A stretch of DNA of 64,000 nt from Escherichia coli. Lineage in GTDB: Bacteria; Pseudomonadota; Gammaproteobacteria; Enterobacterales; Enterobacteriaceae. Below the pieces are notes generated by a model, which worked only from the letters and a program-made list of their open reading frames with translations, ran no database searches and was not told the DNA's origin. The stretch's first letter is position 1. Each line of letters opens with the position of its first letter. Shown here piece after piece: positions 61,214 to 61,773 of the stretch. The stretch is from assembly GCF_003334335.1 (NCBI RefSeq), contig NZ_QOWQ01000027.1. One strand, 5' to 3'. A program made the position numbers and the translations under genes.

Positions 61214-61687
61214 CTACGCACGTCCAACCAGGTGCTTCACACTCCTGTACTTAAGACCGTTTTTACCAAGCCCCAGATACAGAAAGGTGTTCACCGTCTT
61301 CGTGTTTATCCCCATTTCACGGGCAAGATGGCAGGGCTTTGACTCCCGGTACACGTATCCAAACATCACCACCATCTCGGACATCGTCAGTGGTCGCGCA
61401 TACGTATTATGTACCCACTCACCATTCCGGATTTTCCTGTACGTCTCCAGGCGCCCCGTAACATCTTCCGCATCAATCTGAAGATAACGGCGCCCCTGAA
61501 ACATGCAGCACATCAGCCTGCCAAGGAGGGCATCACAGATTATCACCCATGACTCATCATGTGCCGGTACGCTCTTCCTGTTCTCTGGTGTAAAAAACTC
61601 CCTCGCCAGTATTATCCTGTACCCCTCAAGCATCTGCTGCAGGCCATACTCCAGATAACGGTTGCGGGTCGCCAGAATCACTTTCAT
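61214..61687 (-). CDS. Putative HTH transcriptional regulator, LuxR/EcpR(MatA)-like C-terminal helix-turn-helix
   Basis: Track ORF 61214-61759; start proposed at ATG 61685-61687 (MKVILATRNRYLEYG, aggtga SD); C-terminal LTMSEMVVMFGYVYRESKPCHLAREMGINTKTVNTFLY resembles GerE/LuxR HTH. Confidence 0.5.
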   Translation of the reverse strand: MKVILATRNRYLEYGLQQMLEGYRIILAREFFTPENRKSVPAHDESWVIICDALLGRLMCCMFQGRRYLQIDAEDVTGRLETYRKIRNGEWVHNTYARPLTMSEMVVMFGYVYRESKPCHLAREMGINTKTVNTFLYLGLGKNGLKYRSVKHLVGRA

Positions 61688-61716
61688 CGCTGTCACCTGT
61701 TTCATGCTCACATGAG

Positions 61717-61748
61717 AAAAAACGGCAGGCAAAACTCCACGCCTGCCG
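61717..61748 (-). terminator. Rho-independent terminator directly after the adhesin gene on the minus strand (cggcagg...cctgccg followed by T6)
   Basis: Inverted repeat plus a 6-nt A-run on the plus strand (T-run on the minus strand), between the adhesin stop and the regulator ATG. Confidence 0.6.
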
Positions 61749-61773
61749 TCATGCTTCATGTCACTGTCAGCAA

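What the first reader, a model, noticed from the sequence alone, without database searches (positions are those of the whole stretch)
61214..61759. Regulator gene sits immediately behind the adhesin terminator, implying read-through or attenuation control
A LuxR/EcpR-like HTH regulator is encoded on the same strand directly downstream of the adhesin. A rho-independent terminator (61717-61748) lies between the adhesin stop codon and the regulator start codons (61705 or 61687), leaving essentially no room for an independent promoter outside the adhesin coding sequence. Regulator expression may therefore depend on terminator read-through from the adhesin transcript or on a promoter embedded in the adhesin 3' end. 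This is an unusual arrangement for a regulator of a surface adhesin. A YkgJ-like gene nearby echoes the K-12 ykgJ-ecp (EcpR) neighbourhood, as I recall it.
Basis: inference. Interest (0 to 1): 0.35.

Follow-up and report, generated by a model that had tools for sequence, protein, structure and literature searches.

The report
TosE-like regulator behind the EibE terminator
The gene behind the adhesin's terminator is ORF-156E of the already sequenced P-EibE prophage, which I identify as a relative of the E. coli regulator TosE; adhesin, hairpin terminator, then regulator is the normal layout for this small family, not an oddity.

Summary
On the minus strand lie a trimeric autotransporter adhesin (61774-63237), a canonical intrinsic terminator (hairpin 61721-61750, six T), a Shine-Dalgarno site (61693-61698) and a 157-aa ORF (61214-61687). 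The true start is ATG 61687, not 61759 or 61705.

The DNA is 100% identical to GenBank AF151676 (prophage P-EibE of E. coli ECOR-9). That record already annotates eibE, this stem-loop and "orf-156E", with no function given.

Pfam and NCBIfam find nothing significant in the protein. An AlphaFold model matches a receiver-like domain joined to a LuxR/GerE helix-turn-helix domain. It is a full-length homologue of TosE of uropathogenic E. coli (30% identity, E=9e-30). It shows no detectable similarity to EcpR.

tosE also sits directly behind an adhesin gene (tosA) with a hairpin and T-run in between, inside the published tosRCBDAEF operon. Nine divergent adhesin cassettes keep a hairpin at the same place, with compensatory changes, 25-35 nt before the regulator's start.

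My best reading is low-level expression by terminator read-through, coupled to the adhesin. This is inferred, not shown. A conserved 41-aa membrane peptide gene follows the regulator. I rate it a new member of a known kind, of modest interest.

The parts
63238..63595 (-). AT-rich non-coding region upstream of eibE, the presumed site of the cassette's own promoter. It contains an AT-rich inverted repeat at 63335-63363, annotated as stem_loop in AF151676.
   Evidence: Sequence. The feature at 844-872 of AF151676 converts to the window by window = 64207 - record position. Blocks are conserved among eib upstream regions. The consensus scan finds no sigma-70 site on this strand.
61774..63237 (-). 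eibE, an immunoglobulin-binding trimeric autotransporter adhesin of 487 aa.
   Evidence: ORF. EibD structure 2xqh matches at E=3.9e-92 and the YadA anchor 2lme at E=1e-17. The region is 100% identical to AF151676, where this CDS is eibE.
61751..61773 (-). Spacer between the stop codon and the hairpin, containing the conserved motif CTGACAGTGACATGAA. Its function is unknown.
   Evidence: It is conserved in cassettes whose coding DNA is 60-77% different at synonymous sites. It occurs once in the window, which is no more than chance for a single copy.
61714..61750 (-). Intrinsic (rho-independent) terminator: stem GACGGCAGGC/GCCTGCCGTT, an 8-nt loop, then a T-run (six T at 61717-61722, then CTC).
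   Evidence: Covariation and position are conserved. It is annotated as stem_loop 2458-2485 in AF151676.
61693..61698 (-). Shine-Dalgarno sequence AGGTGA of the regulator gene, five nt before the ATG.
   Evidence: Read from the sequence. Purine-rich equivalents lie at the same place in the other cassettes.
61214..61687 (-). orf-156E: a 157-aa TosE-family protein with a receiver-like N-terminal domain and a LuxR/GerE-type helix-turn-helix C-terminal domain.
61035..61160 (-). Conserved 41-aa small ORF (MEQKKIRCGRRKYTAGAMCFMLFVWLGGVVTFCVLAALIMQ) with a basic N-terminus and one hydrophobic helix. It is the third gene of the cassette, equivalent to ORF-60 of P-EibA and P-EibD. It is not annotated in RefSeq here.
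   Evidence: tblastn finds it directly after the regulator in all phage-borne cassettes fetched, at 64-90% identity. Codon changes are shown. phrog_9340 matches at E=6.6e-15. orf-60A and orf-60D are annotated.
61011..61029 (.). Hairpin GGGGAGTCACCAGCTCCCC. It is a canonical terminator for the plus strand (the YkgJ-like gene). On the minus strand it follows the small ORF but has no T-run.

Best explanation
This is the right-end cargo cassette of a lambdoid prophage (P-EibE type) inserted next to tRNA-Ser (serT) beside the hya operon. It has three genes on one strand: eibE (adhesin), orf-156E (a TosE-family LuxR-type regulator) and a 41-aa membrane peptide.

Proposed mechanism:
1. Transcription starts in the AT-rich region upstream of eibE.
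2. Most transcripts end at the intrinsic terminator 23 nt after the eibE stop codon.
3. A minority read through. These supply the mRNA for the regulator, which has its own ribosome-binding site, and probably for the small peptide. The regulator is therefore made at a small, fixed fraction of adhesin transcription.
4. During lytic growth, terminator-resistant late transcription coming through the tail genes would also express it.
5. The protein has a degenerate receiver-like domain. An invariant Asp52 sits at the phospho-acceptor position, but there is no acidic pair after strand 1. This domain is joined to a LuxR/GerE DNA-binding domain.
6. By analogy with TosE, the protein adjusts other programmes, with flagellar motility or other surface structures as the leading candidates, when the adhesin is being made.

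Shown here: the anatomy, its conservation, the homology and the fold.
Inferred: the read-through, the DNA binding and the target genes.
For: (1) Geometry. The intergenic gap is 86 nt, the hairpin ends 33 nt before the ATG, the regulator has its own SD, and no sigma-70-like site lies on this strand.

(2) Conservation of the hairpin. Nine divergent adhesin cassettes keep a hairpin 25-35 nt before the regulator start (counted). Changes are compensatory, and in L033 the stem is entirely different. Synonymous sites of the regulator gene are saturated meanwhile (dS 1.1-2.8).

(3) The homologue tosE (E=9e-30) lies 120 nt behind tosA, with a hairpin and TTTTT directly after the tosA stop. tosRCBDAEF is described as one operon. 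TosE and TosF are associated with suppression of motility, and RNA-seq reads for tosE and tosF were too few to analyse (PMC5956150).

(4) The gene is under purifying selection (dN/dS 0.12-0.23).

(5) The fold is a receiver-like domain plus a LuxR/GerE helix-turn-helix domain.

(6) Standalone relatives with no adhesin upstream have long AT-rich upstream regions and no hairpin. The short gap with a hairpin is therefore specific to the adhesin-linked copies.

(7) The cassette has the same orientation as J, lom and the tail-fibre genes.
Against: - There are no transcript data for this locus.
- The terminator looks strong (7 G-C pairs, six U), so read-through might be negligible.
- Intact family members persist without an adhesin and without the hairpin in EPEC and EHEC prophages. 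The regulator therefore does not need the adhesin, and the hairpin may simply belong to the adhesin gene.
- One variant (L018) has a poor T-run.
- A weak promoter overlapping the terminator cannot be excluded.
- TosE's own mechanism is not worked out. The cited paper says its regulatory function is unknown.
- There is no TosF partner here.
Confidence: 0.5

Rival explanations
1. The regulator has its own promoter overlapping the terminator (-35 in the 3' arm of the hairpin, -10 in the sequence after the T-run). The terminator then only insulates it from eibE.
For: By my own reading of the sequence, TTGCCT, a 17-nt spacer and TGTGAGCAT form a weak extended -10 promoter-like site. In L004 and L018 a CATAAA hexamer lies at a similar place.
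Against: - Only about 7 of 12 consensus positions match, and the site is below the scan threshold.
- The predicted transcription start would fall inside or just before the Shine-Dalgarno sequence, leaving almost no leader.
- The candidate hexamers are not conserved in L005, L024, L025 or L033, whereas the hairpin is.
Confidence: 0.12
2. The regulator and the small peptide are expressed only during lytic growth. Q-modified RNA polymerase from the late promoter ignores terminators and runs through the tail genes, eibE and the hairpin. In the lysogen they are silent.
For: The cassette sits at the very end of the late gene block, in the same orientation. Terminator-resistant late transcription is established for lambdoid phages (general knowledge).
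Against: The same layout of adhesin, hairpin and regulator occurs outside prophages, where there is no Q. Examples are the tos operon on a pathogenicity island, the cassette in L018-L020 that follows a 1439-aa adhesin gene and an OmpA-family gene rather than tail genes, and about 40 plasmid records that carry homologues, and RTX-linked copies. This explanation does not exclude read-through in the lysogen.
Confidence: 0.15
3. The regulator acts mainly on its own cassette. It binds the conserved inverted repeats upstream of eibE, giving a feedback loop whose gain is set by the leaky terminator.
For: Conserved AT-rich inverted repeats and a TGTATACA palindrome lie upstream of divergent eib genes. 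LuxR/GerE-type regulators next to the autotransporter gene upaB bind its promoter (PMC4844996).
Against: - Intact copies without any adjacent adhesin are common. Others sit next to capsule genes or to PapB-like genes.
- Eib expression is reported to depend on IbrAB from another island (Sandt 2002, as cited in PMC7649339).
- The upaB regulators (taken here to be HyxR and HyxA) are not detectable homologues.
Confidence: 0.25
4. orf-156E is a silent passenger. The hairpin is simply the terminator or 3' stabiliser of the eibE message, and the downstream ORF has no role.
For: Every annotation source calls it hypothetical or of unknown function. The terminator looks efficient.
Against: - dN/dS is 0.12-0.23 across copies whose synonymous sites are saturated.
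- 25 residues are invariant, including the helix-turn-helix core KTV.
- The SD site and its spacing are conserved.
- A characterised homologue, TosE, has a reported phenotype.
Confidence: 0.08

Closest known systems
ORF-156A/C/D/E of prophages P-EibA, P-EibC, P-EibD and P-EibE of E. coli ECOR-9 (GenBank AF151091, AF151674-AF151676; Sandt and Hill)
   Same: This is the same object. AF151676 is 100% identical over window 61000-61850 and annotates eibE, the stem-loop and orf-156E at the same positions. The A, C and D prophages have the same order, plus orf-60.
   Different: Those records give no function or family for ORF-156. The small ORF is not annotated in P-EibE.
TosE, the first gene after tosA in the tosRCBDAEF operon of uropathogenic E. 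coli CFT073 (C_RS01670, 160 aa)
   Same: It is a full-length homologue: 30% identity over 152 aa, E=9e-30, hhalign 99.8%, predicted-structure TM-score 0.93. It lies immediately 3' of a large surface adhesin gene, with a hairpin and T-run after the adhesin stop. The literature calls it a LuxR family member associated with suppression of motility.
   Different: The adhesin there is a type I secreted RTX protein, not a trimeric autotransporter. The gap is 120 nt rather than 86 nt. TosE is followed by a second HTH protein, TosF, which has no counterpart here. Here a 41-aa membrane peptide follows instead. The tos operon is on a pathogenicity island, not a prophage.
NarL/FixJ-class response regulators (EvgA, RcsB, LiaR, NarL) and GerE
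   Different: - It is only 157 aa, against about 200-220 aa.
- The model shows four rather than five main strands.
- There is no acidic pair after strand 1. The sequence there is T7-R8-N9, with T7 and N9 invariant.
- No partner kinase gene is present.
- Sequence similarity is below the Pfam and PDB thresholds.
Regulators encoded at the 3' end of adhesin operons that repress motility (PapX in E. coli, MrpJ in Proteus mirabilis; recalled from general knowledge)
   Same: The logic is the same: a regulator gene placed last, so that it is made when the adhesin operon is transcribed.
   Different: The protein families are different (MarR-like and Xre-like helix-turn-helix proteins). No homology was tested or claimed.
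Phage morons (extra genes with their own promoter and terminator inserted between late genes and the attachment site; general knowledge)
   Same: The position after the tail-fibre genes at the prophage end, the same orientation as the late genes, and a factor-independent terminator after the cargo gene.
   Different: Here the terminator lies inside the cargo unit, between its first and second genes, rather than at its end.
EcpR/MatA, regulator of the E. coli common pilus
   Same: Both are small LuxR-type proteins associated with an adhesin locus.
   Different: There is no detectable sequence relationship (hhalign probability 0.5%). ecpR is the first gene of its operon, upstream of the pilin genes.

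Membership tests
TosE / ORF-156 family | Full-length sequence homology to TosE | tested here: met
   BLASTP gives 30% identity over 152 of 157 aa, E=9e-30. hhalign of the family profile against TosE gives 99.8%, E=1.5e-29. The AFDB model A0A0H2V4I0 of CFT073 matches with TM 0.93.
TosE / ORF-156 family | Gene lies directly 3' of a large surface adhesin gene, same strand, with a short gap containing a hairpin | tested here: met
   The window shows it, as does tosA-tosE, and eight further cassettes with TAA adhesins and one RTX-linked copy whose hairpin lacks a T-run. It is not universal. Copies also exist near hpaBC, upstream of kpsF, next to PapB-like genes, and without an adhesin in EPEC and EHEC prophages.
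TosE / ORF-156 family | Partner protein TosF encoded next to it | tested here: not met
   TosF shows no similarity to ORF-156E. The next gene here is a 41-aa peptide.
TosE / ORF-156 family | Co-transcription with the adhesin, and suppression of motility | not testable with these tools
   Known only from the literature for tos. There are no expression data for this locus.
LuxR/GerE-type HTH regulators (Pfam GerE PF00196) | Sequence match to the GerE/LuxR HTH profile | tested here: not met
   There is no Pfam hit at E<=0.001. GerE reaches E=0.1 in 1 of 21 members. NCBIfam finds nothing. A PDB profile search gives the VqmA HTH at E=0.065 and GerE at E=0.29.
LuxR/GerE-type HTH regulators (Pfam GerE PF00196) | Four-helix LuxR/GerE DNA-binding fold at the C-terminus | tested here: met
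Two-component response regulators (receiver domain) | Phospho-acceptor Asp with an acidic pocket, conserved Thr/Ser and Lys, five-stranded receiver fold, partner kinase | tested here: not met
EcpR/MatA | Sequence homology to MatA, and position as first gene of the adhesin operon | tested here: not met
   hhalign probability is 0.5%. The K-12 gene order is shown.
Intrinsic (rho-independent) terminator | G+C-rich stem-loop followed directly by a U-run, on the transcribed strand, after a stop codon | tested here: met
   Conservation and covariation are shown.
Intrinsic (rho-independent) terminator | Termination, and its efficiency, in vivo | not testable with these tools
   This needs Term-seq, Northern blots or reporter assays.
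Transcription attenuator (leader peptide or riboswitch type) | A conserved alternative structure that competes with the terminator, or a known RNA family | tested here: not met
   RNAalifold keeps only the terminator hairpin. Rfam finds no match at E<=1. Pairing between the post-stop spacer and the ribosome-binding site is significant only in one variant, L024.

The most novel reading that the evidence does not exclude
Adhesin, leaky terminator, TosE-like regulator and 41-aa membrane peptide together form a portable module carried by prophages, plasmids and islands behind very different adhesins (trimeric autotransporters and RTX proteins). The terminator would work as a fixed-ratio divider, so that a small dose of regulator reports how much adhesin is being made. 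The regulator would switch off motility or remodel other surface structures such as capsule. The membrane peptide would be the input partner of the kinase-less receiver-like domain. This would help explain the static-versus-shaken control and the chain-like growth seen in Eib-positive Shiga-toxin-producing E. coli.
Probability: 0.15. Interest if true: 0.5.

Novelty: new member of a known kind. Interest (0 to 1): 0.28.

Why it matters
Eib adhesins give serum resistance, immunoglobulin binding and the chain-like adherence of LEE-negative Shiga-toxin-producing E. coli. How they are regulated is poorly understood.

Recognising ORF-156 as a TosE homologue gives a named, testable candidate regulator to a gene that GenBank, RefSeq, Pfam, NCBIfam and PHROGs all list as unknown. 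It also suggests that phage-borne adhesins bring their own link to host motility or surface programmes.

The family is very small: 43 cluster representatives among 1.84 billion proteins. It is almost confined to E. coli accessory DNA, and that includes intact but mis-annotated copies in EPEC and EHEC prophages next to effector genes.

The arrangement follows a known logic, so the gain is incremental.

Tried and rejected
- PsrA/PsrB (prophage-encoded secretion regulators): I recalled them as LuxR-like. The literature says they are AraC-type. Rejected.
- GadE and DctR/YhiF: similar in size and in N-terminal pattern, but hhalign is not significant (probability below 1%).
- EcpR/MatA: no similarity.
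- HyxR and HyxA, the regulators next to the autotransporter gene upaB. I take these to be AutR and AutA of PMC4844996. No similarity.
- TosF: no similarity.
- RfaH/ops antitermination: the 5' arm of the hairpin in L018 reads GGCGGTAG, but the full ops pattern GGCGGTAGnnTG is absent from the cassette and from all fetched loci.
- Attenuator or known RNA family: none found.
- A long helix pairing the post-stop spacer with the regulator's ribosome-binding site: significant only in L024 (p=0.002). It is marginal in the window (p=0.05) and absent in six other variants.
- The 181-aa ORF from ATG 61759, and a 14-codon mini-ORF from ATG 61752 that spans the hairpin: neither their start codons nor their frames are conserved.
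- Correction of an earlier inference: I first took the adhesin-less copies in E2348/69 and O55:H7 for decayed pseudogenes, because RefSeq marks fragments. Translation shows an intact ORF, so I withdrew the idea that the regulator decays once the adhesin is lost.
- Papers I could not read: Sandt and Hill 2000, Sandt et al. 2002 and Engstrom et al. 2014 are not held in the library. No held paper mentions ORF-156 together with eib.

Full report
**1. What is in the sequence**

The end of the window is E. coli DNA. It holds hyaABCDEF (54386-59880, minus strand), tRNA-Ser(UGA) at 60280-60367, and a YkgJ-family gene (60506-60856, plus strand).

The following lie on the minus strand:
- a 487-aa trimeric autotransporter adhesin (61774-63237);
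- a hairpin at 61750-61721 followed by TTTTTTCTC;
- a Shine-Dalgarno sequence AGGTGA (61698-61693);
- an ORF ending at 61214.

The hairpin has 11 pairs, 7 of them G-C, and an energy of -19.9 kcal/mol. The 121-nt stretch around it folds better than all 200 shuffles, z=-3.46.

The real start is ATG 61687. It has the SD five nt upstream. RefSeq and GenBank both use it. All aligned relatives begin there with MK(V/F)(I/L)LAT. The stop-to-start gap is 86 nt, and only 33 nt separate the foot of the hairpin from the ATG.

**2. The locus is already on record**

Window 61000-61850 is 100% identical to GenBank AF151676, "bacteriophage P-EibE" of E. coli ECOR-9. That record annotates eibE, a stem_loop at exactly this hairpin, and "orf-156E", with no function attached.

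The sister prophages P-EibA, P-EibC and P-EibD have the same order: eib, stem_loop, orf-156. P-EibA and P-EibD also have orf-60.

The adhesin matches the EibD crystal structure at E=3.9e-92.

In complete genomes the cassette follows J, lom, the tail-fibre gene and a DUF4376 gene. It lies at the right end of lambdoid prophages in the same orientation, at several different chromosomal sites: serT/hya, yecD/aspS, btsS and prfC. It is a phage cargo cassette.

**3. What the 157-aa protein is**

Sequence libraries are silent:
- Pfam gives no hit at E<=0.001. GerE reaches E=0.1 in one of 21 members.
- NCBIfam finds nothing.
- PHROGs places it in phrog_6585, "unknown function".
- RefSeq calls it hypothetical.
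- A profile search of PDB sequences gives only hints at the right place: the VqmA HTH at E=0.065 and GerE at E=0.29.

An AlphaFold2 model built on 21 relatives is confident (pLDDT 86.9, pTM 0.82). It shows an alpha/beta N-terminal domain and a helical C-terminal domain.
- The top solved-structure matches by Foldseek are all NarL/FixJ-class regulators: EvgA, LiaR, RcsB, FixJ and StyR. Probability reaches 0.99 and E is about 2e-3.

The receiver-like domain is degenerate. An invariant Asp52 follows strand 3, but the residues after strand 1 are Thr-Arg-Asn rather than acidic (Thr7 and Asn9 are invariant). Only four main strands are modelled. I infer that it is not phosphorylated in the usual way.

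**4. The closest characterised relative**

The AlphaFold database search pointed to a 160-aa CFT073 protein (TM 0.93). In the CFT073 genome this is the first gene after tosA, that is, tosE of the tosRCBDAEF operon by gene order.
- BLASTP gives 30% identity over 152 residues, E=9e-30.
- The family profile matches TosE at 99.8%.
- TosF is unrelated.

The literature describes tosRCBDAEF as one operon. It describes TosE and TosF as LuxR-family members associated with suppression of motility, with the regulatory function otherwise unknown. In an RNA-seq experiment tosE and tosF gave too few reads to analyse (PMC5956150; the title of Engstrom et al. 2014 is quoted there and).

The family is tiny. 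It has 43 cluster representatives at E<=1e-3 among 1.84 billion proteins, and only a handful are full length. Named hits are almost all from E. coli, with one from Salmonella in AFDB.

**5. The arrangement is the family's norm**

Directly after the tosA stop codon lies ATGTGGGAGGGAAACTTCCCACAT followed by TTTTTGAG, and tosE starts 82 nt further on.

I collected nine distinct TAA-linked cassettes: EibE, EibD, EibA and six others. They include one outside a prophage (L018) and one with a quite different stem (L033: ACAGGCGGT/ACCGTCTGT followed by TTTTT). All nine have a hairpin 25-35 nt before the regulator's ATG, and each regulator has its own purine-rich SD.

On their alignment RNAalifold keeps only this hairpin. 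The pair counts are:
- 91% of cells paired, against 31-58% when the 3' partners are slid;
- five pairs with changes on both sides, against 1.4 in shuffles (1 of 500 reach this).

Synonymous sites of the adjacent regulator gene are saturated (pS 0.59-0.77) while dN/dS is 0.12-0.23. Both the protein and the hairpin are therefore maintained by selection.

A family member also follows RTX (HemolysinCabind) genes in another context.

Relatives that are not behind an adhesin have long AT-rich upstream regions and no hairpin. They lie next to hpaBC, upstream of the capsule gene kpsF, and after a PapB-like gene.

**6. How it most likely works**

No sigma-70-like site was found on this strand anywhere in 60000-64000. 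That scan also misses the eibE promoter, so its silence is weak evidence.

The stronger argument is geometric. Any transcript starting upstream of 61750 must pass through the terminator. A promoter placed after the terminator would have to start within or next to the SD.

The only candidate I can read is TTGCCT, 17 nt, TGTGAGCAT. It matches about 7 of 12 consensus positions and is not conserved.

I therefore favour partial read-through of the eibE terminator as the source of regulator mRNA in the lysogen. Terminator-resistant late transcription would be a second source during lytic growth, given the orientation. The tos operon is the precedent.

The function is inferred from TosE: a DNA-binding regulator that couples adhesin production to other programmes, most plausibly motility. 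EibG synthesis is reported to rise in static culture and fall with agitation (PMC4352079). No held paper discusses the downstream gene.

**7. Limits and contrary evidence**

- Nothing here measures RNA.
- The terminator looks efficient.
- Best matches at about 66% DNA identity without an adjacent adhesin occur in about 147 of 191 positive genomes. In the two loci examined, E2348/69 and O55:H7 CB9615, the copy lies after the tail-fibre genes (beside nleH1-2 and nleF in CB9615). The terminator is gone, yet the ORF is intact in E2348/69, although RefSeq marks it as fragments in both. The regulator can therefore stand alone, and the hairpin may belong primarily to the adhesin gene.
- No conserved antiterminator, known RNA family or ops element supports "attenuation" in the strict sense.

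**8. Comparison and verdict**

"EcpR-like" does not hold, nor does "unusual". The YkgJ echo is not meaningful for ecp. A YkgJ paralogue does recur beside another such cassette.

The feature has been a sequenced locus for many years. Its kind, a regulator placed behind an adhesin gene's terminator, is known from tos. What appears new is the link between ORF-156 and TosE, and the generality of the module, including a third conserved gene.

I rate it a new member of a known kind, interest about 0.28.

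Noticed in passing
window 61035-61160 (-): An unannotated 41-aa ORF with a basic N-terminus and one hydrophobic helix lies 53 nt after the regulator's stop. It is conserved in frame after the regulator in all phage-borne cassettes fetched (64-90% identity), matches phrog_9340, and equals ORF-60 of P-EibA and P-EibD. It could be a small membrane modulator or a toxin-like peptide.
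   Followed up: partly
window 60506-60856 (+); L015-L017 1263-1589 (-): A YkgJ-family cysteine-cluster gene, 82% identical to K-12 YkgJ, lies between serT and the prophage end, so it is on the inserted DNA. A 78% identical copy sits between a tailspike gene and another TAA cassette in L015-L017. This looks like a recurrent phage-borne YkgJ paralogue.
   Followed up: partly
L003 6004-6510; L037 about 4004-4500: EPEC E2348/69 and O55:H7 CB9615 each carry a TosE-family copy (about 60% protein identity in E2348/69) after the tail-fibre genes of a prophage, beside nleH1-2 and nleF in CB9615. The ORF is intact in E2348/69; the CB9615 copy was not translated. RefSeq annotates only pseudogene fragments in both. 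Similar matches at about 66% DNA identity occur in about 147 genomes, including O103, O111 and O121 strains.
   Followed up: partly
L010-L012 and L021-L022, gene at 4001 or 3001: Family members of 163-171 aa sit alone about 450 nt upstream of kpsF, the first gene of the capsule export cluster, next to type VI secretion genes. They have long AT-rich upstream regions. They may be capsule-linked regulators.
   Followed up: no
L028 2245-3152; L029: Another family member follows a PapB-family gene by about 236 nt, with an Hha gene nearby. This recalls the pairing of TosR (PapB family) with TosE in the tos operon.
   Followed up: no
window 63335-63363 and about 63255-63270 (-): An AT-rich inverted repeat lies upstream of eibE and is annotated as stem_loop in AF151676. 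A TGTATACA palindrome lies about 25 nt before the start codon. Both fall in blocks conserved among divergent eib upstream regions and are candidate operator sites.
   Followed up: partly
window 61751-61773 (-): The spacer between the eibE stop and the hairpin (CTGACAGTGACATGAA) is more conserved than the synonymous sites of the flanking genes. A recognisable remnant persists even in copies that have lost the hairpin (L026, L003). I have no explanation for this.
   Followed up: partly
window 61708-61752 (-): A 14-codon mini-ORF (MTAGVEFCLPFFLM) starts at the foot of the hairpin and spans the whole terminator. Similar mini-ORFs exist in several variants but not in L024, L025 or L033. It is probably incidental.
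   Followed up: partly
window 6721-6914, 24353-24395, 30281-30359, 41042-41464: Rfam gathering-score matches elsewhere in the window: Ysr251, ES036 (CssrF), naRNA4 (CssrE) and a cspA thermoregulator. They are unrelated to this finding.
   Followed up: no
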